Below are positions 1-45,565 of a stretch of 61,695 bases of DNA, in pieces. Each line of letters opens with the position of its first letter. The first letter of the stretch is position 1. The notes under the pieces were generated by a model, which ran no database searches, was not told where the DNA came from, and saw only the letters and a program-made list of their open reading frames with translations. Source of the stretch: Puniceicoccales bacterium (GTDB lineage Bacteria > Verrucomicrobiota > Verrucomicrobiia > Opitutales > JAIRLM01). The stretch spans positions 1 through 61,695 of the forward strand of contig JAITDG010000028.1 in NCBI GenBank assembly GCA_031282685.1, given 5' to 3'. The translations under genes were made by a program, and so were the position numbers.

Positions 1-3000
1 CTCGAGAAAAGCGTTCCCTATGAAATTTACAGCAAAGCGCTGGCGGACATAGACAGCGGCGCCTCTTCCGTCTTTGACGCCCAGCCGCCGGGAGCCGCCG
101 GACCCGTTTCCGTCGCCGATATCTATAGCCAACAGAAAAAAAGTGGTGGATCGCCCCGAAAAAATCGATCTCTCGTGGATGCCGCTGGCCTCTTTAAGCA
201 CCTGAAAAATAGGGAGGTTGCGCAGCAATTGCGCAGCCACTTCGCTGAGGACGAGTCCATCAAGGGTTTCGCCTTCTTTGAAGGAACTTCTTGGTACGTG
301 CTCAAGAGGGACGGGAATGCCGTTGAACTTCCGAATAACAGCGAAGAGGCAGTTTTTAGGGCCACCGGAATAGATCGGGAAGGTCTCTTCGTATTTTTCT
401 CTCAAGCAAATAGCACTGGGACGGACTTTAAACTTTCCCTGGATGGGACCTCCGTAGTCACGGTGGATGCTAGTAGAACTTCGAATTCGCTGCTTCAGCA
501 GGCCATCCTCCGCTTACGGCAATTCTTCGATAGGCAAACCGTCGACATTGCCGTGGTCGGTGACTCGTCCGCACCGGCACCGACTGCCATGGGACCGCAT
601 ATGATAACTGGTTTTGTCGATAGACCAGCACAGCTAATCGATAGACCAGCACAGCTAATTCAAACACTGCCGGCAAAACATAGATTGGCTATGCACAATA
701 GATATTTGTCCATCGTCACGCAGACGGAAAAAAATCAATTGGAGCAAATTGAAGCGCGAAAGTACGAGTGCTTCGTAAAGGAAGCCCAGAGCGCCTACCT
801 GTGTCTCGTGGAGCACAAAATCTCCGACATAAAAAAGCAGATAAAAAAGGCCGGCCAGTCGCAGTTACTAGAAAAACAGCTGACTCTATTGATCAAATGC
901 CTAGAGGAGCTTTGCATACGCAAAAGACAATTCGACCCGGTAAAACTCTACGCGCCCGAAAAGGTATTGATGTCAGCGGAAACGGCCTTCAACGCGGAAT
1001 TGGCTAAAATGAAGAAAAGGCTGGAGAACACCATTGGCACCGATGACTACAGATTGCTCCTAGAAAGTGACGCCAACGAGCTTGCCCGCAGGTTTACCGA
1101 CGCGAGGAAGGATGATCTGAAGGCAATTGGGCAAGTGTCCGTCTTTCCGGAAGGCGCCGGCGCTGAACTGGGAGTACAAGCGCAAGCGGAGACGGAAGCG
1201 GATACGAAAGCGGAAATGGAGACGGTAGCAGTTTCACAAACTCAAACCGCATCGAGTGTAAATAGTACCATATTGAAAAACGCGACTCCAGCAGTGGAGC
1301 GCTTTATTCCACCAGAATCCAAGGGGATCATTCCGGTCAGTGCATTTGCCGCTGCCGTACTAGATAAATATAAAGGAGAAATTTTTAAAATCGCCCTAAC
1401 AAATCCCACGGTAGTAAAGAAACATTTTAATACACTCATAGCCATGCTCAATCCTACCAGCTGGGATGCCGTATTTGATTCAGTGCAGTGGCACGATGAA
1501 TCTATTCGCGCAATCTTAGACGCCCGCTTCCTTGAGGCCTTAGCAGAAAGCGGATGCCAGGTCGGAGACAGTAAAGAAAAAGTAATCAGATTTCTCAAAG
1601 AACTGGAAGAAACAAACATTCCCAAAACGGATATGGGGCCTGCAGAAATCTCGATAAGAATTCATAATCTACTTGCAAGTACAAAAGAAAGATCGGCAGA
1701 TGAGCTAGCGACTATCCTTTGGCCAGACAGACCGAATGATGGGTGGCGCAGTTTTGTAACTGAAAGTGATTGGGAATTGTGTAAAAGGGCATTTTTTGCA
1801 TTACCCAAAATTACACGTTCAAGTACAGATGCTGGTGCCACACTTGATGGGAACGATATTTTCTTTGTTGGTGCCATATTATTAAATATTGCGAGCCGCT
1901 GCGGTAGTAGCAGCGAGCTTTTTATAAAAGCGTTCCTTCCGTTTGCCCGCATGCTTGAAGGACAAATATTTCCTCCAGAAGTGACGAACAAATTTCGCCG
2001 CCTAGATGCGCAGCTGGCGATAGAGCCGGAACCGGCCGCTCCACCGGAGACTACCGCCCTGAGTCTCAAAGCGCTATTGAAGCAAGGAAATTTAGAAAAA
2101 ATGCTATCCTACGCCAGTAGTAAACTTATGGATAAATTCGGCGGAAACATTATTACTACCATTACTACTAGTGGGACTGCCATCACTTTTATCGATAAGT
2201 TCGTAAAGATTTTCGACAGAGGAAATTCTTTTTCTGCGAGAAAGCTCATTGGTCAGGGAGTGAGATCGGCTTTTAGTATAGGTGAAAGTGGAGGGATGAC
2301 TGGATTTATCACGAAGATTTTCGATGGAATCGCTATGCCGGACAGCCTGACTCCGGAAATGAAGACTGCGCTCGGCAATCTGTTCACTATCGACCTTCCC
2401 GAACTCCTTTTCAGTCTCGAAATTCTACCGCAGAATGAGGCAAAACTCCTAGGCGCAATCGCCTCGCTGGCCGTCGCCGAATTTCTGCCACCGGAATCCA
2501 AAGCCGGAGACAAATTCGAAGAAATTATCATGGGTTTGGCTAACACGGAAGTTACTATGGCAAACGGCAAAAAAACAACGATGGTAGACCCCGCCGCCGC
2601 CGTCGCTCTCACCAAAGAAATGCTAAGGCCATTAACGGCGATTACTAGGTCGGACTACATTGAAACGGAAATAGCAGCGGAAATTAGCGGTAAGCGCACT
2701 ACACATGCCCGTCTCAAGGCTGAATATGACACGCTCATGGCGCAATCAGGAAAATTGCAACATCCGAGAGGATCGATCCAGCAGGCACAAGTAGACGTAG
2801 AAAATCTTAAAAGGGCCACTGATTCGGCATTCAGCATACTTAAAGGCGCACAAACTATCGCGAACAGCGTGAAAAAATTAAATGGAATCAAAGAAATAAA
2901 AAAAGGCGTGGATGGAATTAGTGATAAACTTTACGACTCTATTAAAAGTCTACTTTCGAAAAAAAATACCGTACTAGAATCGAGTAATGTGTTGAAAATT

Positions 3001-4287
3001 GAATCTAAAGGAAGAATTAAAGCCATATCTATGAATGATGTTCTTACGGAAGTTTTCGGAAAAACAAATGATATTACTAATATACCAAAAGCAATGGTCG
3101 AATGCGAATTCATCATTAAAGGCGATGCTTCCCGAGAAGAAAAAGAACTCGCAATGCTAAAATTGGAAGTTGCAAAAGCTTGGATTGAAACGTTAGACAA
3201 AACTGACCAAGCCACTATCACTGGCTTGGTTGATAACGCGAAAAATCTGCAACAACTTAATGCGACTCTTAGTGCCAGAAAAACAAGAGCTGCGGAGCTC
3301 GAAACGGCAATGGAGCCCTTCATTGCGCCGAAAACCTTCTTTGGGAAGCGCAGGGATTTCAGATTCGACGAAGATCGAATAAAACGTGAAGCGGAAGAGC
3401 AATTTGCACCAATTGCTGCGGCACTCGCCAAGACGACAAAACTATTCATTTCCCCATTCCTGGATGCCGTAACCGAATCCGTAGGCGGAGTTACGCTTCT
3501 GGCCGTCGGCCAAAAAACTTTTTCGAAAATGAAAGACAATATCTGGTCCGACAACGGAGAAGAGCCGACAAAACTAGAGGAAATATCTCTTCCCGAATGG
3601 TTTGCCAATGCAACGAACGGTGATCCGGAGCTGAGGGGAGGCGAGGCAATGTTTTCGAGTAATGTCGTGATTTCCGGATTTTTCCGAAATCAGCTGCGCG
3701 TACTCGGTCCCGACGGAAAAGTGGACAGTGTCGCAACGTCTACCCTAAATGACCCATCGTCAAGGATCTCAGTTCACCCAGCCAGCATGCTTGTCGTCGA
3801 CACGCGGACGGAAGAGGAAATCAAGAACAAAGCCGTGCCAAAAATGAAAGCGCTATTTCTGACGGACAGCGAAAAAGAAAACGTTAAAAAGCTCATCGCG
3901 GACGGAAATCTGAGCAATTGCCATCTCTTCGACGCGGACGGCAATCCGGAGGGCGTCAAAGCTCCCTGGCAGGACCTCCAGGGAGGAGGAGAGGCTGTTA
4001 CCCTTGACGCAAAAAGCCAAGAGATCCTCGCCGATTGCCGAAGAGTGCATCAAGCGGCAACGCAAGTGGCAAAAAATGCGGCCATCCAAATGCGCATCTA
4101 CAACGGGGAAGGGACGCAGGAAGAACTGGAGCAGGTCATCGGTAATGTGCCGCCAGGATCCCGTGAATCATGTATCACTCTGGCACAGACCATCATGAAA
4201 GAGAAAACCGGACAGGATGGGACGATAAATTGGATTGAACTGCGTTCCCGTCTGACGGAACCGGCGGCAAGGAGGGCCGCCGCCTAG
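1..4287 (+). CDS. Large hypothetical coiled-coil-rich protein, 5'-partial (at least 1,428 aa); candidate secreted or host-interaction protein
   Basis: Frame 1 is open from nt 1 (LEKSVPYEIYSKALADIDSG...), so the GTG at 175 in the ORF track is only the first in-window start. Long charged helical stretches (for example KKQIKKAGQSQLLEKQLTLLIKCLEEL, LKAEYDTLMAQSGKLQ) are present. I recognise no enzymatic motif. G+C is visibly lower than in flanking pgk. Stop is TAG at 4285-4287. Confidence 0.75.
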   Translation, partial: LEKSVPYEIYSKALADIDSGASSVFDAQPPGAAGPVSVADIYSQQKKSGGSPRKNRSLVDAAGLFKHLKNREVAQQLRSHFAEDESIKGFAFFEGTSWYVLKRDGNAVELPNNSEEAVFRATGIDREGLFVFFSQANSTGTDFKLSLDGTSVVTVDASRTSNSLLQQAILRLRQFFDRQTVDIAVVGDSSAPAPTAMGPHMITGFVDRPAQLIDRPAQLIQTLPAKHRLAMHNRYLSIVTQTEKNQLEQIEARKYECFVKEAQSAYLCLVEHKISDIKKQIKKAGQSQLLEKQLTLLIKCLEELCIRKRQFDPVKLYAPEKVLMSAETAFNAELAKMKKRLENTIGTDDYRLLLESDANELARRFTDARKDDLKAIGQVSVFPEGAGAELGVQAQAETEADTKAEMETVAVSQTQTASSVNSTILKNATPAVERFIPPESKGIIPVSAFAAAVLDKYKGEIFKIALTNPTVVKKHFNTLIAMLNPTSWDAVFDSVQWHDESIRAILDARFLEALAESGCQVGDSKEKVIRFLKELEETNIPKTDMGPAEISIRIHNLLASTKERSADELATILWPDRPNDGWRSFVTESDWELCKRAFFALPKITRSSTDAGATLDGNDIFFVGAILLNIASRCGSSSELFIKAFLPFARMLEGQIFPPEVTNKFRRLDAQLAIEPEPAAPPETTALSLKALLKQGNLEKMLSYASSKLMDKFGGNIITTITTSGTAITFIDKFVKIFDRGNSFSARKLIGQGVRSAFSIGESGGMTGFITKIFDGIAMPDSLTPEMKTALGNLFTIDLPELLFSLEILPQNEAKLLGAIASLAVAEFLPPESKAGDKFEEIIMGLANTEVTMANGKKTTMVDPAAAVALTKEMLRPLTAITRSDYIETEIAAEISGKRTTHARLKAEYDTLMAQSGKLQHPRGSIQQAQVDVENLKRATDSAFSILKGAQTIANSVKKLNGIKEIKKGVDGISDKLYDSIKSLLSKKNTVLESSNVLKIESKGRIKAISMNDVLTEVFGKTNDITNIPKAMVECEFIIKGDASREEKELAMLKLEVAKAWIETLDKTDQATITGLVDNAKNLQQLNATLSARKTRAAELETAMEPFIAPKTFFGKRRDFRFDEDRIKREAEEQFAPIAAALAKTTKLFISPFLDAVTESVGGVTLLAVGQKTFSKMKDNIWSDNGEEPTKLEEISLPEWFANATNGDPELRGGEAMFSSNVVISGFFRNQLRVLGPDGKVDSVATSTLNDPSSRISVHPASMLVVDTRTEEEIKNKAVPKMKALFLTDSEKENVKKLIADGNLSNCHLFDADGNPEGVKAPWQDLQGGGEAVTLDAKSQEILADCRRVHQAATQVAKNAAIQMRIYNGEGTQEELEQVIGNVPPGSRESCITLAQTIMKEKTGQDGTINWIELRSRLTEPAARRAAA
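619..660 (+). repeat. Perfect-but-one 21-bp tandem duplication inside the large CDS (encodes DRPAQLI x2)
   Basis: gatagaccagcacagctaatc (619-639) is followed directly by gatagaccagcacagctaatt (640-660). The duplication is in frame. Confidence 0.95.
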
Positions 4288-25136: not shown

Positions 25137-25254
25137 CGCAAGCCGTTGTCAGCATAAAAATTTGGAGCGGACCCGGAAAGATATTCTGCCGGCAAAAATC
25201 GGAGGGATTAAAATTTTTCATTGCTCCGGCGCGCTCTAGCGGCGACACTCTCCC

Positions 25255-27900
25255 GTGAGAAAGCAAATTGGGCAGTTTTTGGGCCTGGGAATCCTTTATC
25301 TCCTTCGCGGGATAGCCTTCGGTGCGAACGTAGCCGTCCCCTGGACCTATCCGGCCGAAGATGGCACACTGCAAGCCGTTGAAAGTGCAGGAAACGGCGA
25401 TAGGCTCTACTTCTCGGAGAGCACCTTTGTCTTTAGCGAGCAAGTTTCCGTAGAATTAGATAAATTCCTCGGCCTCTGTGGCTCAGAATTCGACGGTTCC
25501 GGCCGACCCACGACGGTTTTGCAAAAGGCCGAGGGGGCCGAAGGTCGGTTCTTTGATTTTGCTGGAGCCGCTGGCGACGTTTCGGCCCTCACATTCGAGG
25601 GGGAAAACTCACCGTACGGAGGGGCGCTTTCGTCTGTCGTCTTCTCCGGCAACATCCAAAGCTGCGTATTCGCGAACAATTCGGAATCGGCGGAAGGTGG
25701 GGCTGTCTTCTGTAAATGCTTCGAAGGAAACATTCAGAGCTCGTTTTTTATAAATAACTCATCCGGGACAGACGGCGGGGCGCTTTGCGTAGAAGGGATA
25801 AATTCCCCTATTCAATACTTCATCGGCAACATTCAAAATTCTATCTTTTCGGGCAATTCGACCGCCAATGGGGGACGCGGCGGGGCAATCTACTTCGACA
25901 AATTCTGCTCCGAAGATGGCGATGACCAGGCGGATTTGGGCGGAAGCTACTTTTTGGGAAACAGCGCAGGTATTTTGGGCGGAGCGCTTTATGCATCCGT
26001 AGATGCTCAATTGGCGGCCCGGTCCGGCGATGTGATTTTCCAGAGAAACTTAGCCGATGGGCACCCCAATGGGATGCACTTTGCCAACTTAAACAATGGC
26101 CAAAGGATCCTCATTGGGGCAGCAGAGGGCCATACCTTTTGGAACTACGACCCCATTTGGAGCGGCACCTCCGACGGCGAAAAGCTCGCCCATCAGAACC
26201 TCTTCCTGGAAATTAACGCGAATAGCGGGGAGACGGGCACGGTGCTCTTTGATCGCCACCGATCGGACATTTGGTTTCAAGGTGCCAACGGTGCAACGGT
26301 TTTCAACGGTACACTGGCACTGCAGAATGGGGCTTCCTTCGGTGCCAGCGAGAGCAATGTGTGGGGATTTCCCGCCAATGCGGGCCGTTTTACGCTGAAA
26401 GAGAGCGCCACCCTACGGATCGCCTACGGCCAGGATATCAAGCGTTACGAATTCAACGAAAGCACATTTAAACTGGAATCCACCCTGGAATCCGTGCCCT
26501 ACGATCCAGATTCCATGCGGAGCGGAATCTACGCCGGCATAGCGGATCTGCTGGGGAATTTGCAATTCATTCTGCCGCTAAATGTTACGACTAACACCCC
26601 CATGCTCTCGATCCCGTTTGGGGAAGTTACTGTTAGCCCATCGACCATAATCGACGTTGGCGTGAGTCCCTACGGCGACGGGCCATTCGCGCTTTCGGAG
26701 GGACAGTCGGTGACATTGTTGGATTGCGCTTCATTGGACTGCGAGCGGACGACCTTCCCCAACTGCGACGGATCGAGCATTCCCAACGTACGGACCGGCT
26801 ACCACTTCTCCGTTCTACAGGACGGCAATCGAATTTTAGCCAAATTTCTAGGGACGGGCAGCGGAAGTTCGTCCTCCGGCTCCAGCAGTTCGACGGCCTC
26901 CAGCTCGATCAGTGGAAGTTCCTCAATCGCAAGTTCGTCCAGCTCAAGCGGTGAAAGTTTTTCTTCCGGTTCCAGCGGCTCGGCGGCCTCCAGCTCAAGC
27001 GGATCGGATGTTGGTGCCATACGGCGCAAGATTTTGGGCGAAGGATGGCTGGCGGGCGTTGCCCTAGTAAACGGCGGCGGAGATCGGCTGGAATTCCCCG
27101 TTGCGAAAAGTGTGGCCACCTTCTGCTCCCTCGATGGGAGCCTGGAATGGCACAGGGAAAATCCACACCTCAAAGCGCACGGCACCTCCCTTGCGGCTGG
27201 ACTTACGGGCGCGGCCGGCCCACTGACCTGCGGCCTATTTTTCGAGGGAATATTCGCCAGAACGGACTCCGGGAAAGAGTGGGACGGCGAATGGGAGATT
27301 TCCGGCAGAGGACAAGCCCGAGCTATCGGTGGTGGAGCGTTCTTGCTCATAGATTTCGAATGGGCCTCCGTGGACTGCCCTCGCATAGAGGTGGCCATCC
27401 GGACCGGGCGCCTGCGAAATCGCTGGAATGTCAAAGATAGTTCCGGAAACGGGCTGGCCTTCGACGGAACCGCTCCCTACGTTGGAATTCGGCTGGGCGC
27501 CGCCTACGGCCTTCTATGGAAAGAAAAATTTCCCATCAACTTCTACGGCAAATGCTTCTGGTCCCATCTGTTCAGCGAAGAGTTCGAAGGCGAAGGAATT
27601 TTCTTTCGCTACTTGGACTCCTTCCGCCTGCGGCTGGGCGGCCGGCTCACCTATCCGGCCGATCGGAGACTAGTACCCTTGTTCGGAGCATACTATGAAC
27701 AGGAGCTGGCCGGAACGGCGGTGGGCAGCGCGGAGGGGTCGAAAATCCCACAGGCAACATTGCGGGGCGGCAGTGCCGCCGGCGAAGGGGGCTTCTCCTA
27801 CCGGCCTATTTCGCATGTCGCCGTGGACCTGCTAGTTCGCGGATCCGCGGGCCGAGAATCAGGCATAAGTGCATCTATCGTAGGAAAATATGAATTTTAA
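25255..27900 (+). CDS. Pmp-type (polymorphic membrane protein family) autotransporter, paralogue 1
   Basis: Signal-like N-terminus. Alternating GGA[ILV] (GGALSS, GGAVFC, GGALCV, GGAIYF, GGALYA) and FxxN (FANN, FINN, FSGN, FLGN, FQRN) repeats. Ser-rich linker. C-terminal beta-barrel-like domain ending KYEF. Confidence 0.85.
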   Translation: MRKQIGQFLGLGILYLLRGIAFGANVAVPWTYPAEDGTLQAVESAGNGDRLYFSESTFVFSEQVSVELDKFLGLCGSEFDGSGRPTTVLQKAEGAEGRFFDFAGAAGDVSALTFEGENSPYGGALSSVVFSGNIQSCVFANNSESAEGGAVFCKCFEGNIQSSFFINNSSGTDGGALCVEGINSPIQYFIGNIQNSIFSGNSTANGGRGGAIYFDKFCSEDGDDQADLGGSYFLGNSAGILGGALYASVDAQLAARSGDVIFQRNLADGHPNGMHFANLNNGQRILIGAAEGHTFWNYDPIWSGTSDGEKLAHQNLFLEINANSGETGTVLFDRHRSDIWFQGANGATVFNGTLALQNGASFGASESNVWGFPANAGRFTLKESATLRIAYGQDIKRYEFNESTFKLESTLESVPYDPDSMRSGIYAGIADLLGNLQFILPLNVTTNTPMLSIPFGEVTVSPSTIIDVGVSPYGDGPFALSEGQSVTLLDCASLDCERTTFPNCDGSSIPNVRTGYHFSVLQDGNRILAKFLGTGSGSSSSGSSSSTASSSISGSSSIASSSSSSGESFSSGSSGSAASSSSGSDVGAIRRKILGEGWLAGVALVNGGGDRLEFPVAKSVATFCSLDGSLEWHRENPHLKAHGTSLAAGLTGAAGPLTCGLFFEGIFARTDSGKEWDGEWEISGRGQARAIGGGAFLLIDFEWASVDCPRIEVAIRTGRLRNRWNVKDSSGNGLAFDGTAPYVGIRLGAAYGLLWKEKFPINFYGKCFWSHLFSEEFEGEGIFFRYLDSFRLRLGGRLTYPADRRLVPLFGAYYEQELAGTAVGSAEGSKIPQATLRGGSAAGEGGFSYRPISHVAVDLLVRGSAGRESGISASIVGKYEF
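26857..27009 (+). repeat. Serine-rich low-complexity coding tract (imperfect AGC/TCG-type repeats)
   Basis: Encodes GSGSSSSGSSSSTASSSISGSSSIASSSSSSGESFSSGSSGSAASSSSGS. It contains the repeated DNA element ggcctccagctc. Absent from the downstream paralogue. Confidence 0.85.
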
Positions 27901-27994
27901 AGCGGCGCTCGGCACTGCCTTCGATCGCAACAAAAGAGAAAAAAGTGTAAACTTTTTGCTTGCACCGCTCTATTTTTTTCGCAACATCCACCCC

Positions 27995-37077: not shown

Positions 37078-39246
37078 ATGGCTTCCCGTCCCAGCGAAAA
37101 GCCAACTCCCAAGCCGCTTCCGCCGGCCGAATGGCCCAAGAGGCGCCTGCACGGCATCGCCTACGGCTGCCTGGCCTTGCTGCTGCTGGTGGCCCTCTTC
37201 GGCTACGATCCCGCCCAGTGCCCCTGGCTCAGCACGATGGCCAATGCGCCGGACGGACCTCACAACCCCATCGGCACCCTCGGCCTGTCGATCACCTTTG
37301 GCGGCCTTTCCGCATTCGGTCTGGCCTACCTGCTGTTTCCGATCTTCCTCCTCCGCGCCAGCCGCTGCCACATTTCTTCCCACAGTAGGCCCATGAGCCG
37401 CGGCCGACTCCAGGCCATGGCACTATCCCTCGCTCTGACTCCCATTTTTCTGGCCCAACTGCAGAGCAGCTTCGCCTTCCTCCGCCGCCGTTCCCTCGAG
37501 CGGCTCTTTCTGGACGGCCTCGGCGGCTGGATCGGTGACATCGCCTACTCCTACGCGTTCTTTTCCCTGCTCGGCGCCACCGGGACGGCCCTAGCCGTCG
37601 CCATTCCGCTATTTTTTTCCCTCTGGTGCGTTTTCACCGGCAAGGGCTCGCTGCCGGAGGCCATGGAGGGCGTTCTGGCTGAGGTAAGTCACTTTTTTTA
37701 CGCATCAGTCCAACTCTTCCGGCGGCCCCGGGTCGGCCCGGGCGAGAGAAGGGTGGAAGCCAGCGCCTTCGAGCTGCTCGGAGAAGTGCGGGATCAGCCC
37801 CCGCCGGCTGGGGCTGAGGGCGGTGAGTTTTTGGAGGAACAGGATGCGGTGGACGATGCGCTGCTGGCCATGAAAAAGGGGGCCGTGCAGGGGGAACTCT
37901 TCGAGGAGAGCTCCTTTTCCCCGCCGACGGAACCCTACGTCTTTCCGCCTCTGGACCTTCTCGATAGGCCCGGTGGCGGCGGCGAGGAGGGAGCGGCCCG
38001 GGACCTGCTGGCCATGGAGCTGCGGGAAGCGCTGGAGCAGTTCGGCGTGGACGTGGAAATCGGCGAAATTCAGTCGGGGCCGGTCATTACCCGCTTCGAA
38101 GTGCTGCCTGCCCCCGGCGTTCGCGTGGAGAAGATTGTCAGCCTGGACAAAAACATCGCCCTCACCCTGCGGGCACCGTCGGTTCGAATCCTGGCCCCCG
38201 TTCCCGGGAAGAACTGCGTCGGCATCGAAGTGCCTAACGCCCAGCCGGCTCCAGTCTGTCTGCGGGGAATTCTGGAGTCGGAAGAGTGGCGCACTAAGAC
38301 GGCGGAGATCCCCATCGTCCTCGGCCGCGGGGTGACCGGCGAGCCGCTCATCGCCGACCTGGCCCGCATGCCGCACCTGCTCATCGCCGGCGCCACCGGT
38401 TCCGGCAAGACGGTCTGCATCAACTCAATTTTGGCCTCTTTCCTCTTCCACGCCTCGCCGGAGGATCTGCGGCTCATCCTGGTGGACCCCAAAATCGTGG
38501 AGATGCAAGTGTATAACCGACTGCCCCACATGCTTCTACCGACTCTAACGGATCCCAAAAAAGTGCCCAACGCGCTCCGCTGGCTCATTTGCAACATGGA
38601 GTGGCGCTACCACCTGTTCGCCAGCGTGGGCGTGCGGAACATCGCCGGCTTCAACGGGAAAGTCACCCGCACGCGGGAGGAGATGGAGCGGGCCGACGCC
38701 CTCGAGAAGGAGCTCTCCCCGGAGGAGCGGGCCGCCATGGCGGCCGTGCGATCCGGCCGCCGGGAAGTGGCCGCCGTGCCTCGGCAAAAATTGCCCTACA
38801 TCGTCTGCGTCATCGATGAGCTGGCGGACCTGATGCTGGTCGCCCCCGACGACATCGAAAATTCCGTCACTCGCCTCGCCCAGCTGGCCCGGGCCGCCGG
38901 CATCCACCTCATTCTTGCCACCCAGCGGCCCTCCGTGAACGTCATCACGGGCGTAATTAAAGCCAACCTGCCCAGCCGCATCGCCTTCAAGGTGGCCTCC
39001 AAGGTCGACAGCCGCACGATTTTGGACGCCAACGGGGCGGACGGCCTCCTGGGCCGCGGCGACATGCTCTTCCTGCCGCCGGGCGCCTCCGCACTCCAGC
39101 GGGCCCAGGGCGCCTGGGTGAGCGACGAGGAAATCAACAAAGTAGTAGATTTTCTTGCCCGCGGCGGCCCGCCCCACTTCGACCGGCAGGCCATGGCCTT
39201 CGTGGAAAATCCGGAAACGGCCGGCGGACCGGCGGCAAATCCCTAG
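37078..39246 (+). CDS. ftsK: DNA translocase FtsK/SpoIIIE
   Basis: N-terminal TM segments, a linker, then the motor domain with HLLIAGATGSGKTV (Walker A), IVCVIDELADL (Walker B) and GIHLILATQRPS. AGGAAGGA lies upstream of the ATG. Confidence 0.93.
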   Translation: MASRPSEKPTPKPLPPAEWPKRRLHGIAYGCLALLLLVALFGYDPAQCPWLSTMANAPDGPHNPIGTLGLSITFGGLSAFGLAYLLFPIFLLRASRCHISSHSRPMSRGRLQAMALSLALTPIFLAQLQSSFAFLRRRSLERLFLDGLGGWIGDIAYSYAFFSLLGATGTALAVAIPLFFSLWCVFTGKGSLPEAMEGVLAEVSHFFYASVQLFRRPRVGPGERRVEASAFELLGEVRDQPPPAGAEGGEFLEEQDAVDDALLAMKKGAVQGELFEESSFSPPTEPYVFPPLDLLDRPGGGGEEGAARDLLAMELREALEQFGVDVEIGEIQSGPVITRFEVLPAPGVRVEKIVSLDKNIALTLRAPSVRILAPVPGKNCVGIEVPNAQPAPVCLRGILESEEWRTKTAEIPIVLGRGVTGEPLIADLARMPHLLIAGATGSGKTVCINSILASFLFHASPEDLRLILVDPKIVEMQVYNRLPHMLLPTLTDPKKVPNALRWLICNMEWRYHLFASVGVRNIAGFNGKVTRTREEMERADALEKELSPEERAAMAAVRSGRREVAAVPRQKLPYIVCVIDELADLMLVAPDDIENSVTRLAQLARAAGIHLILATQRPSVNVITGVIKANLPSRIAFKVASKVDSRTILDANGADGLLGRGDMLFLPPGASALQRAQGAWVSDEEINKVVDFLARGGPPHFDRQAMAFVENPETAGGPAANP

Positions 39247-40769
39247 GAATCCGATCCGTTCCCCGCCCGCAGCTGGAGATAGTCAAAGAGAGCTTTCACG
39301 CAGATGAAACACGACGATTCGGTCCGTCTGCGGGCAATCAACTGTCCCAGATCGACCTCCAGCCTTTGAATTTCTCCCTGGCACTCCGGCGGCAGGTTCC
39401 CGTTACACTCCAAAAATGCCTTTACCACTCGGGGTGGAAGAGTTTTCAGACTAGAATTTTCTCCCACGGCATCTGCGAGAACTCGCGCAATGCTATCCTC
39501 TCCGGGAATTTCGATCGGGACGGGAAACGCGCCAAAGAGGGCACTTCTGCTGGACTCCAAATCCCTTCTAATGGAGGGAGCAGCGATACGGGCGCAGTCG
39601 ACGGCAAACTTTTCCGCCACCAGCTCCGCAAGCTCCTTCCGGGAGAAAATGTCCTCCATGACGGCCTCGAAGGCGCCAATGAGCCCCGGGTTCACTTGCC
39701 CCGCCGCTTCGCACTTCCGCCCGTCGGTCCGGAGAAAGTCCACGAGAACCTCGCCGAGTTCGGCTCCGGAGCTTTGATTTTCGGCGCACTGCCGCAGGAA
39801 TTCCTCTCTAGTCCCGCCGTGACCGGCCCCTAGAATATCGTAAGCCCTGTCCAGCACAGCGGTTGCACGGGCTTCGTCGCCCAGTCCGAGCGAATTCGCC
39901 AAAAAGGGCAGGAAGGCCCCCGCATCCCTGCCACAGGTGATAATGGCAGGCAAGTGGCGCCCCATGAACGCGTCGATTTCGCTGCCCTCCCTGTCGCGAA
40001 GGAAAAAGAAGCCGCGCACGGTGCCATAGGTCCCCAGGGCTCGGTTCAACTTCGGAACGTCCCGCAGTCGGTCGACGTCGACAACCAAAAATGGAGTGGA
40101 ATTGCAAAGAAATCTAAGCGAAGTCGTGGGGAAAACAACTCCGATGAAGGGCACTAGAAGGAAGGCAAATGGGCAGAGGAGCGCCCGACGTGTCACCGTG
40201 CCTTCAAAGTCGATTTTGTTGGCGTCCTTCGAGCGACGAAAGAGCTGGACGATGGAAATGGCGATGCCGCCGAGAAACACGATGGGAAGAAAAATAATGC
40301 AGACAACGGAAGCGGCCCGCCAGATCGCCGGCGCCGCTCCTATGGCCGATTTTTGCCAGCCGTCGAGCGGCACTGCGCAGTGCTGCGAATCGAGATTTGC
40401 GTAGGGCAATATGCTCGCCAATAGGGCGCTATCGGAGACAACCCTATCGACACTATCGGCACCACTTCGATCGGATGCAAAAGGAATGACTGCACTACCC
40501 ACAGAGGAACCGGCGATCAAGGGTTCAGCCGTGGTGCGCAATCGTGGAAATGTCAAGCTCGGAAATGGGAAAGTTGGAAGAAAAGTGACCGCGCGATAGT
40601 GCCACCGGATGGCCCCGGCCGCATTCACCATTAGGGCCCTAAACATTTTCCAGCCGCAGCCCTCTCCTGCCCCGCATGCTCCCCCGGGACAGTTCCAAAG
40701 TTTGCAGCCAAATCCAGACCCATTGCCGCGGCGCCGGCCGTCCCCCATTGGAAGATTGGAAATAATCAC
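39243..40769 (-). CDS. Hypothetical membrane protein with a two-TM hairpin and a large soluble C-terminal domain
   Basis: Hydrophobic segments AASVVCIIFLPIVFLGGIAISIVQLF and ALLCPFAFLLVPFIGVVF are separated by about 18 polar residues, followed by roughly 300 aa with no motif I recognise. The true start is uncertain (GTG 40769, ATG 40748 or ATG 40646). Confidence 0.55.
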   Translation of the reverse strand: MIISNLPMGDGRRRGNGSGFGCKLWNCPGGACGAGEGCGWKMFRALMVNAAGAIRWHYRAVTFLPTFPFPSLTFPRLRTTAEPLIAGSSVGSAVIPFASDRSGADSVDRVVSDSALLASILPYANLDSQHCAVPLDGWQKSAIGAAPAIWRAASVVCIIFLPIVFLGGIAISIVQLFRRSKDANKIDFEGTVTRRALLCPFAFLLVPFIGVVFPTTSLRFLCNSTPFLVVDVDRLRDVPKLNRALGTYGTVRGFFFLRDREGSEIDAFMGRHLPAIITCGRDAGAFLPFLANSLGLGDEARATAVLDRAYDILGAGHGGTREEFLRQCAENQSSGAELGEVLVDFLRTDGRKCEAAGQVNPGLIGAFEAVMEDIFSRKELAELVAEKFAVDCARIAAPSIRRDLESSRSALFGAFPVPIEIPGEDSIARVLADAVGENSSLKTLPPRVVKAFLECNGNLPPECQGEIQRLEVDLGQLIARRRTESSCFICVKALFDYLQLRAGNGSDS

Positions 40770-41170
40770 AGGATGCTGCCGACGGAGAGGGCCGGGACTA
40801 GGAAGGGGCGGAGCCGACCTGCCAAACCTCGCGTGCCTGCTCCGCTGTTTCCTTTCCTAAACGCAGCGATCGGCAGGATCAGGAAGGCGGAGCGGAACTG
40901 GTTGAGAGCGAAATCGGAAGACCAATCCCCCGCGCAGTGGTCCAACAGCAAACCCACGACCGGCCGCATAATGCCACCGATGAACATCACGGCCGCGTTT
41001 ACGGCGGCGATGGCCGTCCCCCGAGCTTCCCGACCATTGTGTTCGCTGCTGACAGTGAAGCAGATAACCTGTGGACTGGACAAAATGTCGAGGAGAAAGA
41101 GGAGGAGCCCCAAAGTGGAAAGTGAAAGGTGCGAGGGGCCCAGGATGAAATGCAAATGAAACCCCGTTGA
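40766..41170 (-). pseudogene. Remnant of an MFS-type transporter (C-terminal approximately 130 codons only)
   Basis: GTAIAAVNAAVMFIGGIMRPVVGLLLD ... FRSAFLILPIAAF looks like the last 2-3 TM helices of an MFS permease. No room exists for the N-terminal approximately 270 aa, because the upstream part of the ORF runs antisense into rnpB. Confidence 0.45.
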
Positions 41171-41244
41171 TAGGGCGAGAGTTCGCAATTTTTTTGCCGG
41201 AAAAATTTCTGCCCTTGACGGCTCCGACCGGGCGCACATTGGGG

Positions 41245-41625
41245 GTGCGAGGGGAAGGCACCCGCTCGCCGGTCCGCCGGCGAGAGGAAAGTCCGGACAT
41301 CGCAGGGCAGGACTCCCGATGAAAGTCGGGGAGGGGCATCGAAATGTGCTCCGACGGCCAGTGCCACAGAAAAAAAACCGCCCGCCCAAGCGGGTAAGGG
41401 TGAAAAGGTGGGGTAAGGGCCCACCGCGCCGGCGAGCGATCCCGGCGGCAGGGTAAACCCAGTCCGATGCAAGGCAGAATAGGGAGCCGGGCGGCCCGCC
41501 CGACGGCTCCGGGTACGCCGCACCGGCGGACCTTCTTAGGTCCGCGGGAGTCTCCTTCGGGAGACTAGATGAATGGGTGCCACGGCCCGCAGGGGCCGAA
41601 CAGAATCCGGCTTACCCCTCAAATT
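41245..41625 (+). ncRNA. rnpB: RNase P RNA, bacterial type A
   Basis: Conserved blocks GAGGAAAGTCCGGAC (41282-41296), CCACAGAAA, GGGTAAGGGTGAAA, GGTGGGGTAAGGGCCCACC, GGGTAAACCC, GCAAGGC, and ACAGAATCCGGCTTA (41600-41614). P1 candidate gagggg (41249-41254) pairs with cccctc (41615-41620). P3 hairpin ctcgccgg-tccg-ccggcgag. Ends are approximate. Confidence 0.9.
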
Positions 41626-43600
41626 TTTTATCCCCGGCACGGGATCCGCGTAGAATCTTTTTCTCCGCAAAAAATGCTTCTCCTTTAAGGTGATAGCGGA
41701 AGGGAAAAACAACATCTGTGCAATTTACTTTTTTAGCGGTAACATTAATCCATTGTGACTTCCCCTTTTTCCGGCCACGGGCCCATTCACATTTCTCCGA
41801 ATTACGCGCAACTTCCTTCGAGCCCTCCCCCGGCTAATGGGCCGCAAGCAGAAGAGGCGCCGACGTCACTCATGGGCAGTGGCGGGCTTTGGGAGACGAG
41901 CGCAAAAGATAACAGGCACGAAATTGAAACCATCGTCGACGATTGGTACAAAAATACGCAAGCCTCCTTCCGGGTTGACTCGGGGAAAGTCCCCCAGTGC
42001 GACACCAACGCTGCACGCGAAGTCTTTTGGTTTAAAATATGCACGGCCGTGGATGACCTCTATCCAAACAAAACCTACGAAGAAAAAAGAGAAATTGCAA
42101 ACGAACTCTGTGTAAGAAGCGAGGATGCGTTCGTGGATTTGGATCATTCATTTAGGAATAACGACAAGGAGTGGACAAAACCGATGCGCTATGCGGCAAC
42201 AAATGGCGTCATTGAGCACATCCTTTTTTCTGCAAGAAAAGAGGCACTTTCTCCCGACGCACCCATCATCATTCCCTCTGCAGACAAATTCACGCGTCTA
42301 GTGCTTCCGGGCGGCGGCGGAAAAGGTGCAGTTTACCCGCTCGCGCTTAAAATGCTGCTAAAGGATAATCCAGAATTATTTGACAAAGAAAACTTAACCG
42401 TGGTCGGCTCCTCCGCCGGCGGGCTAGCCGCCGCCCTGGTCGCCACCGGCTGCAATTTGGAAGAATTGCCCACCGTCCTAGCTAATCTGCAGTCCATGGC
42501 ATTGCAATTCGGGTCGAACCACGGTGCTGCGTACCCGTCGATTAGCATGCCGGGCGCATCAATCTTTCCTGCCGCGGAAATCATCCGCTACTTGGACGTC
42601 GAAATTGGAAGAAGGATAAAAACATTTTTAGCCAATTTGAATTTAGGGGAAATTCGACAGAATTGCAATCTCAGTGACAAGGAAATGGCACGGCTGGAAG
42701 TGCTGCGCGACAGGAATCTAGAAGATGTGTCTACTCCTCAAGAAGATAAAATGCCAACCTTTGCCGATCTCGCCCTCCTGCGAAAGATTGGCGCCCCATT
42801 CCATAATTTGGAAGTCACACTCTACAACGAAACGGCCCACGAGGAAATTTATGCCAGTGCGGAGAATACGCCCGACCTTCCCATTGCCTTCGCAGCGAGG
42901 GGAACGATGGCCCTTCCCCTAATGTTTCGGGCCATTTCTATTCCTACTAGACTTCTCCACCCCGCCGATCCTGCCAACCCCGCGAACCCGGACGACAGAA
43001 GCGTCATAGTCGACGGCGGCATAGGGGACAATATTCCCGTAGGCAATAGCGCCCCTTCTCGCAATATCCTCGTTCTCGCGTTTCATAAGGACGGGGACGA
43101 ATTTAAAAAAATTGAAAGCGCCCAATATGCGCTGGGAACCGCAGAGGCGCTGGAGGAACGTTTTGTCACACAGACGCAAAATCCGCTAGTCACATTAGTG
43201 ACAGATCCCGAAATAATGAATAGGGCAGTGGATTTACTAGAAGGCCACATAGGTGGAGGATTTATTTCTTTTTTCCTCCATTGGACGACCGGCGGGAAAA
43301 AGGATACCTATGACCGCGAATCGTACCTGCGAATCGCCGCCGTGGCCAACGGCATGGAAAATGGAGTCGTAAAAATGCTCCTCCATGGGACCATCGGCAC
43401 GCTGACCATAAATCCGACCTCAAGGCAGCAGGCCGTGGTCGATGAAACTTCCCGCCACGACATTCAGGCCCTCGTGGACCAGACTTACCTGGAGCGAGGA
43501 GTACTCGCGGACGGTAGGCCTTTCGGTCAAACGACGGCCGCCTAGCGGCCGGCCCTCCGGAGGAGGGCCCCGCCCGTGTCCGGATTTCCGGAGAAATTCA
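41571..43600 (+). repeat. Tandem segmental duplication, copy 1 (rnpB 3' end + leader + patatin gene + degenerate rluD 3' tail)
   Basis: Collinear with 43601-~45600 at a constant offset of 2,030 nt (for example 41581 aligns with 43611). Confidence 0.8.
41755..43545 (+). CDS. Patatin-like phospholipase (ExoU/VipD-style), paralogue 1
   Basis: GGGGKG (oxyanion hole GGGxKG), GSSAGG (GxSxG nucleophile) and VDGGIGDN (catalytic Asp) are in the canonical order. Roughly 190-aa N-terminal and 150-aa C-terminal regions are of unknown function. GTG start. Low G+C. Confidence 0.8.
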   Translation: MTSPFSGHGPIHISPNYAQLPSSPPPANGPQAEEAPTSLMGSGGLWETSAKDNRHEIETIVDDWYKNTQASFRVDSGKVPQCDTNAAREVFWFKICTAVDDLYPNKTYEEKREIANELCVRSEDAFVDLDHSFRNNDKEWTKPMRYAATNGVIEHILFSARKEALSPDAPIIIPSADKFTRLVLPGGGGKGAVYPLALKMLLKDNPELFDKENLTVVGSSAGGLAAALVATGCNLEELPTVLANLQSMALQFGSNHGAAYPSISMPGASIFPAAEIIRYLDVEIGRRIKTFLANLNLGEIRQNCNLSDKEMARLEVLRDRNLEDVSTPQEDKMPTFADLALLRKIGAPFHNLEVTLYNETAHEEIYASAENTPDLPIAFAARGTMALPLMFRAISIPTRLLHPADPANPANPDDRSVIVDGGIGDNIPVGNSAPSRNILVLAFHKDGDEFKKIESAQYALGTAEALEERFVTQTQNPLVTLVTDPEIMNRAVDLLEGHIGGGFISFFLHWTTGGKKDTYDRESYLRIAAVANGMENGVVKMLLHGTIGTLTINPTSRQQAVVDETSRHDIQALVDQTYLERGVLADGRPFGQTTAA

Positions 43601-43693
43601 CGAATGGTGCCACGGTCCGCAAGGGCCGAACAGAATCCGGCTTAGCCCTCAATATTTTTATCCCCGGCACGGGATTCGCGTAGTAACCCTTCC
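43601..43693 (+). repeat. Orphan duplicated fragment of the RNase P RNA 3' end plus its downstream flank
   Basis: 76 of 83 aligned positions are identical to 41571-41653 by my count, including ACAGAATCCGGCTTA. It lacks all upstream rnpB sequence. Confidence 0.85.
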
Positions 43694-43792
43694 CCGCGGA
43701 GAAATTTGTTATCCTTCTTCGCCAAAATGATAGCCAAAGAGAGAAATAATAGGCGTGCATTTTACTCTCTCTAATGGTAGCATTAGCATGCG

Positions 43793-45565
43793 ATGACCTC
43801 TTCCCTTCCCGCCCGCAGATCTACTCATAGCGCTCCCTGTTCCGCGCGAGTTCATCCACGTTCGTACTCGGAAGAAGGTCCCTGGGAGCCAACGCCACTC
43901 GTAGGGATGAACGGGCCCCGGATGCGAACGGTGGGCATTGAAAGACACAATAGCTGGCCCAGCGCCGACAGTTGGCAAGAAAACACGCAAGCTTCCTTTC
44001 GGACTGACTCAAAAAAAGTTCCCCACTGTGACATTGCCACCGCACGCGAAGTCCTTTCATTCAGATTGAATGTCCTCCTGGAGGAGCTCTATCCGGATGG
44101 GTCGTCCGAAAAAAAGGAGCAAATCGCAAACGATCTCCTCGAGAGAGGAGAGAATGAATTCGTAATTTTAAGTGAATCGCTTAGGCGGAACGGCAAAGAA
44201 TGGACAGAGCCAATGCGCTACGCGGCGGCGAATGGCATCATTGAACACATTCTTTTCGTTGCACGAAAAGAGGCCATTTCCCCGAACGCGCCTATCACCA
44301 TTCCCGCCACAGACAAATTCACGCGCCTAGTGCTCTCGGGCGGCGGCGGAAAAGGCGCAGTCTACCCGGTCACCCTCGAAACATTGCTGAAGCGGCACCC
44401 AGAAATGTTTGATCAAAAGGGCCTAACAATTGCCGGCTCCTCCGCCGGCGGGCTAGCCGCCATCGCCGCCGCCTTCGGTTTTGATTCGCCCGCCGCCCTG
44501 AAAGAGATGCAAACCAGTGCAACAAGCTTTATTGCGGAAATCGCAGGAGGCTTAAGATCTCTATATCCGTCAACCGAAACGCCGGGCCTATCGCCCTTTT
44601 GCGCTAGGGGGGTCATCAAATGCTTGGACGTCAAAATTGGGACAAACGTAAGAAATTTTTTACGGCCTCTGAATTTCGAAGAAATTCAACAAAAACACAA
44701 TCTCGCCGATGCGGAAATGGCACGGCTGGTAGTGCTACGCGATAGAAACCTAACAGACATGTCCGCTTCACAGGAAGGCAAGATGGTAACTTTTGCCGAT
44801 CTTGCCCTGCTGCGGAAGGTTGGCGCTCCGTTCTACGACCTGGAAGTCACGCTCTACAATAAAACGGAGCACGGGAAAATCTATGCCAATGCGAATACTA
44901 CGCCCAATCTCCCCATTGCTTTCGCAGGAAGGGGCACGATGGCCCTCCCCGTAATGTTTCGACCACTTTCCATTCCCAATAGGTTTCTTTATCCTGCCGT
45001 AAGAAACAGTAACGGCAAAAGCGTCCTAGTCGACGGCGGCATAGGGGATAATATTCCCGTCGGCGATAGCGTCCCTTCTCGCAATATTCTCGTTCTCTCA
45101 TTTCATAGGAACGGGGACGAATTAAAAAAAATGGAGAGCGCACAACGTGCACTGAGAGAAGCCGAGAAACAGGAGGGGTGCATTGTATCGGACGCAGTAG
45201 ATGCGCTAGGCGCCCTAGCGGCAAATCCCCAAGTAAAGAAAACGGCAATTGATTTATTAAAAAAATACATATGCGTAGGATTTATTTCCTATTTCCTGCA
45301 CTGGCTGATCGGCACGGAAAAGGAAGACTACGCCCTCGAATCGTATCTGCGAATCGCCGCCGTGGCCGGTGGTATGGCCGGCGGAATCGTGAAAATGCTC
45401 ATCCATGGGAACATCAACACCGCAAACATGAATCCGAGCCCATGGGCGCAGGACGCGGTCAACGAATCTTCCCACTACGACATTCAGGCCCTCGTGGACC
45501 AATTTTACTTGGATCGGGGAAAGCTTCCGAGCGGTGAGTCCTTTAAGGAAGCGGCAAGGGCCTAG
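43793..45565 (+). CDS. Patatin-like phospholipase (ExoU/VipD-style), paralogue 2
   Basis: The same GGGGKG / GSSAGG / VDGGIGDN triad. Collinear with paralogue 1 (for example EWTEPMRYAAANGIIEHILF versus EWTKPMRYAATNGVIEHILF). ATG start aligned with the GTG of copy 1. Confidence 0.8.
   Translation: MTSSLPARRSTHSAPCSARVHPRSYSEEGPWEPTPLVGMNGPRMRTVGIERHNSWPSADSWQENTQASFRTDSKKVPHCDIATAREVLSFRLNVLLEELYPDGSSEKKEQIANDLLERGENEFVILSESLRRNGKEWTEPMRYAAANGIIEHILFVARKEAISPNAPITIPATDKFTRLVLSGGGGKGAVYPVTLETLLKRHPEMFDQKGLTIAGSSAGGLAAIAAAFGFDSPAALKEMQTSATSFIAEIAGGLRSLYPSTETPGLSPFCARGVIKCLDVKIGTNVRNFLRPLNFEEIQQKHNLADAEMARLVVLRDRNLTDMSASQEGKMVTFADLALLRKVGAPFYDLEVTLYNKTEHGKIYANANTTPNLPIAFAGRGTMALPVMFRPLSIPNRFLYPAVRNSNGKSVLVDGGIGDNIPVGDSVPSRNILVLSFHRNGDELKKMESAQRALREAEKQEGCIVSDAVDALGALAANPQVKKTAIDLLKKYICVGFISYFLHWLIGTEKEDYALESYLRIAAVAGGMAGGIVKMLIHGNINTANMNPSPWAQDAVNESSHYDIQALVDQFYLDRGKLPSGESFKEAARA

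What the first reader, a model, noticed from the sequence alone, without database searches (positions are those of the whole stretch)
43601..43693. Orphan rnpB 3' fragment is conserved far better than the duplicated coding sequence
- The non-coding copy of the rnpB 3' end and its flank matches the parental sequence at 76 of 83 aligned positions by my count.
- In contrast, the adjacent leader and the two patatin ORFs have diverged strongly. By eye, roughly half to two-thirds of residues are identical and the N-termini are almost unrelated.
- Under neutral decay the fragment should be the least conserved part of the unit.
- One explanation is ongoing gene conversion from the functional rnpB.
- Another is that the fragment and its flank (...ACAGAATCCGGCTTA.CCCTCAA.ATTTTTATCCCCGGCACGGGAT.CGCGTAG) carry a reused signal, such as the rnpB 3' processing or termination element or the promoter/5' UTR of the patatin genes.
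- A third possibility is a stable sRNA derived from an RNase P pseudogene.
Basis: partly seen in the sequence, partly recalled or inferred. Interest (0 to 1): 0.62.

Follow-up and report, generated by a model that had tools for sequence, protein, structure and literature searches.

The report
Well-kept orphan end of rnpB
A 2-kb stretch starting inside the RNase P RNA gene was duplicated in tandem together with a patatin-like phospholipase gene, and the leftover 83-base piece of the RNA gene has stayed about 92% identical to its source while everything else drifted to about 60-65%, most likely because the working gene cannot change and the piece was re-copied from it later, not because it is a new functional RNA.

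Summary
Block 43602-43684 matches 41571-41653 at 76 of 83 columns, with 6 substitutions and 1 indel. The two patatin ORFs are 55-58% identical in protein, 64-65% identical at four-fold sites, and have dS 0.65-0.69.

About half of the contrast is trivial. The parental copy is the working rnpB 3' end and is frozen, so only the orphan can drift. Even then 17-23 differences are expected and 7 are seen (P 0.003 to 2e-5).

The 26-nt flank beyond rnpB is the stronger anomaly, with 1 difference where 9-12 are expected.

The whole unit is collinear, so this is a tandem duplication. RecA is present, and no tyrosine recombinase was found in the five genomes of the genus searched. Best explanation: frozen parent plus one later homogenisation by gene conversion.

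No promoter, terminator, known RNA family or unusually stable fold was found.

Side finding: elsewhere in the phylum the rnpB 3' end is repeatedly duplicated, once next to an integrase at one end of a 37.8-kb insert.

Interest is modest.

The parts
41246..41627 (+). Complete RNase P RNA gene (rnpB, bacterial class A), the parental copy
   Evidence: RF00010, 202.8 bits, model 1-367. It is the only full copy in the assembly.
41571..41653 (+). Parental block. It holds the last 57 nt of rnpB (P2 3' strand, P18 hairpin, P4 3' strand ACAGAATCCGGCTTA, P1 3' strand) plus 26 nt of downstream flank (T-run and hairpin ATCCC-CGGCAC-GGGAT).
   Evidence: Alignment, Rfam alignment, fold.
41654..41871 (+). 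Leader of patA. Only the middle part (41691-41747) is still significantly similar to leader B.
   Evidence: score 34 against 14.9 +/- 2.3 in shuffles.
41872..43545 (+). patA, a patatin-like phospholipase (557 aa from ATG 41872; the open frame runs from 41755)
   Evidence: PF01734, E = 4.7e-15. The gene call on record is 557 aa.
43562..43600 (.). 39-nt junction stretch between unit 1 and the orphan block. It has no detectable similarity to the sequence after patB. Its first bases close an 8-bp GC hairpin (GGCCCTCC-GGA-GGAGGGCC) that starts just after the patA stop.
   Evidence: score 13 against 13.4 +/- 2.4 in shuffles; fold.
43602..43657 (+). Orphan copy of the last 57 nt of rnpB. It has 6 differences from the parent: 1 deleted G, C>T in the P18 stem (G-U kept), loop GCAG>GCAA, C>G after the P4 strand, and AT>TA before the T-run.
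   Evidence: It is not detected as RNase P or any other Rfam family at E <= 10.
43658..43684 (+). Orphan copy of the 26-nt rnpB downstream flank (T-run and small hairpin), with 1 difference from the parental flank
   Evidence: statistics. The flank is not conserved among congeners.
43685..43921 (+). Leader of patB
43922..45565 (+). patB, a patatin-like phospholipase (547 aa from ATG 43922; the open frame runs from 43793)
   Evidence: PF01734, E = 3e-14. The gene call on record is 547 aa. It is 56-58% identical to patA.
45543..46490 (-). RluA/RluD-type pseudouridine synthase gene, convergent with patB and overlapping its end by about 20 nt. The unit homology ends inside its last 14 codons, which marks the right edge of the duplication.
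   Evidence: PF00849 plus S4 domain; tail alignments.

Best explanation
The block is the left end of an old head-to-tail duplication of about 2.03 kb. The unit started 57 nt before the end of rnpB and ended inside the 3' end of the convergent pseudouridine-synthase gene. It carried the patatin gene with its leader.

Two things keep the block similar to its source:
1. The source copy is the working 3' end of RNase P RNA and is held fixed by selection, so only the orphan copy can drift. This is shown.
2. The orphan, together with 26 nt of flank that is not part of rnpB, was overwritten at least once after the duplication by RecA-dependent gene conversion or unequal exchange with the parental copy. 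This is inferred. If the orphan has drifted freely since, the overwrite falls at roughly a quarter to two-fifths of the way back to the duplication. It has picked up 7 differences since then.

On this view the fragment is a relic with no function of its own. The slowest-diverging segment of a tandem repeat simply stays a recombination substrate longest.
For: - The whole unit is collinear. Offsets are 2031 in the block, 2037 in the middle of the leader and 2029 in the ORF. Homology runs about 20 nt past both stop codons, into the end of the rlu gene. This fits a tandem duplication, not an unrelated insert.
- patA and patB have the same G+C (51.9%) and GC3 (56.6-56.8%).
- The parent is frozen. 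rnpB 3' ends of G000 and G003 differ at 6 of 54 positions, although proteins compared between this genome and its congeners are only 35-40% identical.
- The frozen parent is not enough. There are 7 differences in 83 nt against 16.7-22.7 expected if only the orphan drifts (P 0.003 to 2e-5). The flank has 1 difference in 26 against 9-11.6 expected if both copies drift (P 2e-4 to 5e-6).
- The flank is not conserved in congeners, so deep constraint on it is unlikely.
- The right boundary of the block is abrupt.
- RecA is intact in this genome (C34:22673-23455) and present in all 7 genomes of the family that were searched.
- No tyrosine recombinase was found in the five genomes of the genus searched.
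- No promoter-like or terminator-like site lies in the block, and no fold is better than shuffles.
Against: - There is no direct evidence of conversion. No second strain or sister species is available, so shared derived changes cannot be scored.
- Synonymous identity along the ORFs shows no mosaic (permutation P > 0.1), so conversion is not visibly active elsewhere in the unit.
- At 83 nt the block is a short substrate.
- At two or three of the seven sites the orphan may hold the older state (GCAA loop, AATATTTT as in G003), so the parent is not perfectly frozen.
- The boundaries of the block were chosen after seeing the data, which inflates the P values.
- A cis-acting function cannot be excluded without transcript data.
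Confidence: 0.45

Rival explanations
1. The block is a reused cis-acting signal. The end of rnpB and its flank could carry the transcript end or processing site of rnpB, or an upstream element of the patatin promoter or 5' UTR. A duplicate of the patatin gene could only survive if it took this signal along. Selection would then keep the signal in front of patB and behind patA.
For: - Both patatin genes sit at the same distance (about 220-240 nt) behind a copy of the block.
- The flank, which has no role in RNase P RNA, is the best conserved part (25 of 26).
- All substitutions spare the P18-like hairpin (C>T keeps a G-U pair; the loop stays a tetraloop) and the small flank hairpin.
- A T-run lies between the two hairpins.
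Against: - The block holds no sigma-70-like promoter and no hairpin-plus-T-run terminator. The only -10-like hexamer (TAGAAT) straddles the boundary and is lost in the orphan (TAGTAA).
- Fold energies of the block and its surroundings are no better than shuffles (z from -1.6 to +0.4).
- With only 6 substitutions, about 1 in 5 random patterns would spare both stems (my estimate).
- The flank and leader motifs are not found upstream of the third patatin gene of this genome or of homologues in relatives.
- The universally conserved catalytic P4 strand, useless outside RNase P, is kept perfectly. That fits copying better than a new function.
Confidence: 0.2
2. The block is younger than the rest because it is an attachment-type or long target duplication. 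On this view the patA unit, a diverged copy of the same locus from a relative or an integrase-less cassette, was inserted at the 3' end of rnpB. That end would act as a docking site in the way tRNA and tmRNA gene ends do. The two blocks are then the duplicated target, and patA and patB had diverged before they became neighbours.
For: - The rnpB 3' end is repeatedly duplicated in the phylum.
- G456 has a full rnpB, a tyrosine integrase 72 nt downstream, and a 178-nt rnpB 3' copy at 86% identity 37.8 kb further on. Between them lie a WYL-domain gene and a C5 methylase gene next to the integrase, and a weak phage-tail match.
- G163 has an exact 71-nt orphan and G575 a 72/73 orphan. Their left limits lie 5-14 nt from the one here, and their right limits are a short way past the gene end.
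- The orphan differs from the parent no more than working rnpB ends of different species differ.
- The layout (direct repeat over 30 bp, insert under 20 kb, no mobility gene, low-GC insert) meets the published criteria for insertion with long target duplication (PMC2853133).
- A 39-nt junction stretch of unknown origin lies at the join.
Against: - Beyond the block the two units are still collinear homologues through leader, ORF and about 20 nt of the rlu gene end. An ordinary att or target duplication does not give this. It would need a donor with the same chromosomal locus.
- No third copy of the block lies after patB.
- No tyrosine recombinase was found in this genome or its four congeners.
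- patA and patB have identical composition.
- G163 and G575 show no integrase within 3 kb of either copy.
Confidence: 0.2
3. Nothing beyond the frozen parent and chance. The orphan has decayed neutrally since the duplication, the parental block (flank included) is constrained as part of the rnpB transcription unit, and the low count of differences is sampling noise plus post-hoc choice of boundaries.
For: - With the lower neutral estimate (four-fold sites, d = 0.47), the rnpB part alone is only marginally low (6 of 57 against 11.4 expected, P = 0.044).
- The upper 95% limit of K reaches 0.85 of dS/2.
- The block limits were picked by eye.
Against: - With dS from three codon methods (0.65-0.69), P for the block is 2e-5 to 4e-5.
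- Leader and tail, the non-coding controls inside the same unit, are at about 60% identity with many indels.
- The flank would have to be constrained, yet it has no counterpart in congeners.
Confidence: 0.1
4. The fragment is expressed as a stable small RNA derived from an RNase P pseudogene, for example one that competes for the RNase P protein or pairs with rnpB transcripts.
For: The P18-like hairpin and the small flank hairpin are retained. The fragment lies between two expressed-looking genes on the same strand.
Against: - No promoter-like site lies upstream and no terminator-like site lies after it.
- There is no match to any Rfam family.
- Fold stability is not above shuffles.
- No homologous element exists in any relative.
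Confidence: 0.04

Closest known systems
Tandem segmental duplication leaving a truncated gene copy at the junction, with concerted evolution (gene conversion) of part of the repeat
   Same: - Head-to-tail collinear units.
- A novel junction that joins the unit's end (inside the rlu 3' end) to its start (inside rnpB).
- One intact and one truncated copy of the boundary gene.
- One segment far more similar than the rest.
- RecA is present.
   Different: The homogenised segment is a short non-coding relic of an RNA gene. The classic cases involve whole genes such as rRNA operons or tuf. Conversion is inferred here, not shown.
Genomic islands and prophages integrated into the 3' ends of tRNA and tmRNA genes (tyrosine integrases, attL/attR repeats of the gene end)
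   Same: There is a direct repeat of the last tens of nucleotides of a structured RNA gene plus a little flank, with the intact gene on the left and an orphan 3' piece on the right. In the same phylum, G456 shows this with rnpB and an adjacent integrase.
   Different: Here there is no integrase, in this genome or in its four sampled congeners. The 'insert' is one gene, and it is homologous to what lies beyond the right repeat, leader and downstream gene end included. There is no third repeat.
Insertion with long target duplication (Nobusato et al. 2000; Furuta et al. 2010, PMC2853133)
   Same: An 83-bp direct repeat of the target brackets a short, low-GC, single-gene insert without mobility genes.
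   Different: The published cases are restriction-modification genes unrelated to their flanks, and each was demonstrated by an empty site in a sister strain. Here the insert is a paralogue of its neighbour and no empty site is available.

Membership tests
Bacterial RNase P RNA class A (RF00010) | Full catalytic core (P1-P4, P15, etc.) scoring above the gathering threshold | tested here: not met
   The parent scores 202.8 bits. The orphan holds only the last 57 nt and gives no RF00010 hit at E <= 10 in a local search of 43400-44000. It is a gene fragment, not a second rnpB.
Tandem segmental duplication | Two adjacent, same-strand, collinear homologous units with a novel end-to-start junction | tested here: met
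   Alignment. Constant offsets of 2029-2037 nt through block, leader and ORF. Homology ends at about 43561/45588, inside the rlu 3' end.
Gene-conversion tract | A segment with much lower divergence than neutral sites of the same repeat, with sharp limits | tested here: met
   K = 0.089 against dS 0.47-0.68. The probability under one-sided drift is 0.003 to 2e-5. Identity drops abruptly after 43684.
Gene-conversion tract | Identical derived changes in both copies across strains or sister species | not testable with these tools
   No close relative exists in the protein, genome or metagenome collections.
Gene-conversion tract | Homologous-recombination machinery present | tested here: met
   RecA (PF00154) is intact at G000:C34:22673-23455, E = 5e-116.
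Integrase-mediated island in an RNA gene 3' end (attL/attR) | Direct repeat of the RNA gene's 3' end bracketing the element | tested here: met
   Blocks 41571-41653 and 43602-43684.
Integrase-mediated island in an RNA gene 3' end (attL/attR) | Integrase gene in the element or at least in the genome | tested here: not met
   No PF00589 match at E <= 1e-5 in G000 or in congeners G001-G004. The assembly is only 65% complete, but five genomes agree.
Integrase-mediated island in an RNA gene 3' end (attL/attR) | Sequences just inside and just outside the right repeat are unrelated (element versus chromosome) | tested here: not met
   Leader, ORF and about 20 nt after the stop are homologous and collinear in both units.
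Insertion with long target duplication | Repeat over 30 bp, insert under 20 kb, no mobility genes (criteria of PMC2853133) | tested here: met
   83-bp repeat and a 1.95-kb insert holding only patA.
Insertion with long target duplication | Empty target site in a related genome | not testable with these tools
   Congeners have other genes after rnpB, and no synteny is left.
Intrinsic terminator | GC-rich hairpin directly followed by a T-run | tested here: not met
   The scan of 41000-46000 finds none on the + strand in either block. In the block the T-run precedes the small hairpin.
Sigma-70-type promoter | -35 and -10 hexamers at 16-18 nt | tested here: not met
   No site in either block. The promoter types of this phylum may differ, so the test is weak.

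The most novel reading that the evidence does not exclude
The 3' end of rnpB may be a recurrent docking site for mobile DNA in Verrucomicrobiota, analogous to tRNA and tmRNA gene ends. The 83-bp block here would then be a relic attachment or target duplication that once allowed a single-gene effector cassette (patA) to be inserted, and possibly excised, next to its homologue. This reading is consistent with the integrase-linked 37.8-kb insert in G456 and the 71-73-nt orphans in G163 and G575.
Probability: 0.15. Interest if true: 0.6.

Novelty: new member of a known kind. Interest (0 to 1): 0.3.

Why it matters
For this locus the result is mainly a caution. A duplicated piece of a constrained gene will always look 'too conserved' next to fast-evolving cargo, because only one of the two copies is free to change. 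The right yardstick is half the neutral distance. Measured that way, the anomaly shrinks from about 5-8-fold to about 3-4-fold.

What remains points to recombination between short repeats in a reduced genome that has kept RecA, in a genus where no tyrosine recombinase was found in any of the five genomes searched. The two 83-bp repeats also give the cell a ready route to delete patA by homologous recombination, so the copy number of a likely host-directed phospholipase could change.

The wider observation has more general interest if it holds up. rnpB 3' ends are duplicated in several Verrucomicrobiota, once beside an integrase. The paper library searched holds no report of natural integration into rnpB.

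Tried and rejected
- **Close relatives for a conversion test.**
  - An exact-protein look-up found nothing.
  - A homologue search found nothing closer than 35% identity outside this contig.
  - Two metagenome scans, with a 21-mer of the flank and a 36-nt rnpB pattern, found nothing.
  - Congeners have no patatin gene after rnpB and no conserved flank.
- **Mosaic test for conversion inside the ORFs.** Not significant.
- **Known RNA family in 43400-44000.** Only noise.
- **Promoter and terminator scans, and folds of block, leader and sub-segments.** Nothing above background.
- **Shared leader or flank motif upstream of other patatin genes or elsewhere in the window.** None. The 27-nt match at 33974-34000 lies inside an ORF and is taken as chance.
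- **Homology of the distal tail 43562-43600 to the sequence after patB.** None.
- **Ancestral arrangement of the G163 orphan by synteny in its family.** No synteny is left.
- **Assembly chimera of two strains.** Considered and rejected. The junction shares only about 5 nt with rnpB, too little for a k-mer join. This could not be verified with reads.
- **Literature on rnpB as an attachment site.** Nothing found.

Full report
**What is there.** The window is a contig of an 850-kb, 65%-complete assembly.

Rfam finds one complete class-A RNase P RNA gene at 41246-41627 (202.8 bits). A local alignment shows two head-to-tail units, 41571-43600 and 43601 to about 45590. Each unit holds four parts:
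- an 83-nt block, made of the last 57 nt of rnpB plus 26 nt of downstream flank
- a leader of about 220-240 nt
- a patatin-like phospholipase gene (PF01734)
- about 20 nt after the stop codon

In unit 2 those last 20 nt are the final codons of a convergent RluA/RluD-type pseudouridine synthase gene (45543-46490, minus strand). So the duplicated segment ran from inside rnpB to inside the end of that gene. A 39-nt stretch (43562-43600) at the junction has no detectable counterpart.

**Check of the observation.** The rest of the unit is much more diverged:

| Part | Measure |
|---|---|
| Leaders | about 60% identity, 30 gap columns |
| Proteins | 55-58% identity |
| Four-fold sites | 64-65% identity (n = 164-173) |
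| ORFs | dS 0.65-0.69, dN 0.30-0.33, omega about 0.45 |

The block's distance (K = 0.089, 95% limits 0.035-0.198) is 5-8 times lower than dS.

One correction concerns the 'unrelated N-termini'. They lie upstream of the start codons used in the gene calls on record (557 and 547 aa). They have no significant nucleotide similarity, so they are probably non-coding leader.

**How much of the contrast is trivial.** The parental copy is the working end of an essential ribozyme. Its 3' end hardly changes. G000 and its congener G003 differ at only 6 of 54 positions there, although proteins compared between this genome and its congeners are only 35-40% identical. So after the duplication only the orphan could drift, and the proper expectation is half the neutral distance.

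That predicts 16.7 differences (four-fold sites) to 22.7 (NG86 dS) in 83 nt. Seven are seen (P = 0.003 to 2e-5). For the 57 rnpB-derived nucleotides alone the deficit is modest (6 against 11.4-15.6; P = 0.044-0.002).

The clearer anomaly is the 26-nt flank. It is not part of RNase P RNA and has no counterpart after the rnpB genes of four congeners. It shows 1 difference where 9-11.6 are expected if both copies drift (P = 2e-4 to 5e-6).

These P values are somewhat optimistic because the block limits were chosen after looking. Still, the leader and tail of the same unit serve as internal non-coding controls, and they have decayed to about 60% identity.

**What the block is not.**
- It is not a second RNase P RNA and matches no other Rfam family.
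- Neither copy holds a sigma-70-like promoter or a hairpin-plus-T-run terminator. The one -10-like hexamer (TAGAAT) straddles the block's right edge and is lost in the orphan.
- Folds of the block, its parts and its surroundings are no more stable than shuffled sequence.
- The substitutions do spare the P18-like hairpin (C>T keeps a G-U pair; GCAG>GCAA) and the small flank hairpin. With six substitutions, roughly one random pattern in five would do the same (my estimate).
- No similar motif precedes the third patatin gene of this genome or patatin genes of relatives.
- There is no other copy in the genome.

**Duplication or insertion.** The units are collinear beyond the block. The middle of the leaders (41691-41747 against 43728-43785) is significantly similar (score 34 against 14.9 +/- 2.3). 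Offsets stay at 2029-2037 nt from block to ORF. patA and patB have identical G+C and GC3. This is what an in-situ tandem duplication gives.

Synonymous identity along the ORFs shows no mosaic, so conversion is not visibly at work inside the genes. RecA is intact. No tyrosine recombinase, not even a XerC/D-like one, was found in this genome or its four congeners.

My best reading is a frozen parent plus at least one later homogenisation of the still-similar left end by homologous recombination. Seven differences have accumulated since. I give this reading 0.45. The first half is shown and the second half is inferred.

**A rival that gained some ground.** I scanned about 800 genomes of the order and phylum for the invariant P4 strand (ACAGAANCCGGCTTA). 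After chance 15-mers were weeded out, three other genomes held a genuine extra rnpB 3' end:
- **G163** has an exact 71-nt orphan on another contig.
- **G575** has a 73-nt orphan, 72 of 73 identical.
- **G456** has a full rnpB followed after 72 nt by a tyrosine integrase gene (PF00589), then a WYL-domain gene and a C5 methylase. A weak phage-tail match lies further in. A 178-nt rnpB 3' copy at 86% identity lies 37.8 kb downstream. This is the classic picture of an element integrated into an RNA gene's 3' end.

The left limits of the 71-, 73- and 83-nt repeats fall within about 15 nt of each other.

Two earlier notes of this scan point the same way. One describes a cassette bracketed by a 65-bp rnpB-end duplication in an archaeon. 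The other describes insertion with long target duplication. That class is published (PMC2853133). These notes are leads only.

For this window, however, the simple version fails three tests:
- What lies inside and outside the right repeat is homologous.
- There is no third repeat.
- There is no integrase.

A version in which a diverged copy of the same locus was inserted cannot be excluded. I give it 0.2.

**What could not be done.** No strain or sister species exists in any collection searched, so the decisive test for conversion (shared derived changes) is out of reach.

**Verdict.**
- The most likely cause is ordinary: selection on the source copy plus recombination.
- The novelty for this locus is low.
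- The recurrent duplication of rnpB ends in the phylum deserves its own survey.

Noticed in passing
L112-L114 (G456:C7:151637-189785): An island or prophage-like insert in rnpB in another Verrucomicrobiota genome. A full rnpB lies at C7:151637-151985. A tyrosine integrase (PF00589, E = 5e-14) starts 72 nt downstream, followed by a WYL-domain gene and a C5 DNA methylase. A weak phage-tail match lies further in. A 178-nt rnpB 3' copy at 86% identity lies at C7:189608-189785, 37.8 kb away on the same strand.
   Followed up: partly
L091 (G163:C34:978-1046, minus) and L117 (G575:C33:46334-46406): Orphan rnpB 3' ends of 71 nt (100% identical to the parent on C52) and 73 nt (72/73, parent on C20). 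They start 5-14 nt upstream of the point where the block of this window starts. No integrase lies within 3 kb of any of the four copies. G593:C7:1702 may hold a diverged further example.
   Followed up: partly
whole genomes G000-G004: No tyrosine recombinase (PF00589) at E <= 1e-5 in any of the five genomes of the genus searched, so not even XerC/D was found. RecA is present in all five. This is unusual even for reduced genomes, though all five are incomplete MAGs.
   Followed up: no
window 41872-45565, also 1-4284, 25240-30982, 35401-36768, 56489-58099: Both patatin genes have GC3 of about 57%, against 70-80% in the housekeeping-looking ORFs of the window. Several other large ORFs are similarly or more AT-rich. 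Together they form a compositionally distinct gene class, possibly host-directed proteins.
   Followed up: no
window 41872-45565: dS between patA and patB falls along the gene: 1.19 in the first 130 codons, 0.66 in the patatin core and 0.46 in the last 150 codons. Omega rises from 0.27 to 0.75. The trend was not significant in a permutation test of identical codons.
   Followed up: partly
window 45543-45565: patB and the convergent pseudouridine-synthase gene overlap by about 20 nt at their 3' ends. The copy of this stretch after patA has evolved into, or kept, a perfect 8-bp GC hairpin (43553-43571).
   Followed up: no
window 41589-41592 versus 43619-43622: The P18 tetraloop of the working rnpB reads GCAG, which is not GNRA. 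The orphan reads GCAA, and congeners have GAAA. The orphan may preserve the older state, so the working gene may have changed a loop that usually docks into P8.
   Followed up: partly
L080, L081 (G224:C331 and C22): One MAG of the order carries two full-length rnpB genes (229 and 221 bits) on different contigs. This could be strain mixture or a true duplication.
   Followed up: no
The 508-aa membrane protein upstream (39246-40769) also gave none.
   Followed up: partly
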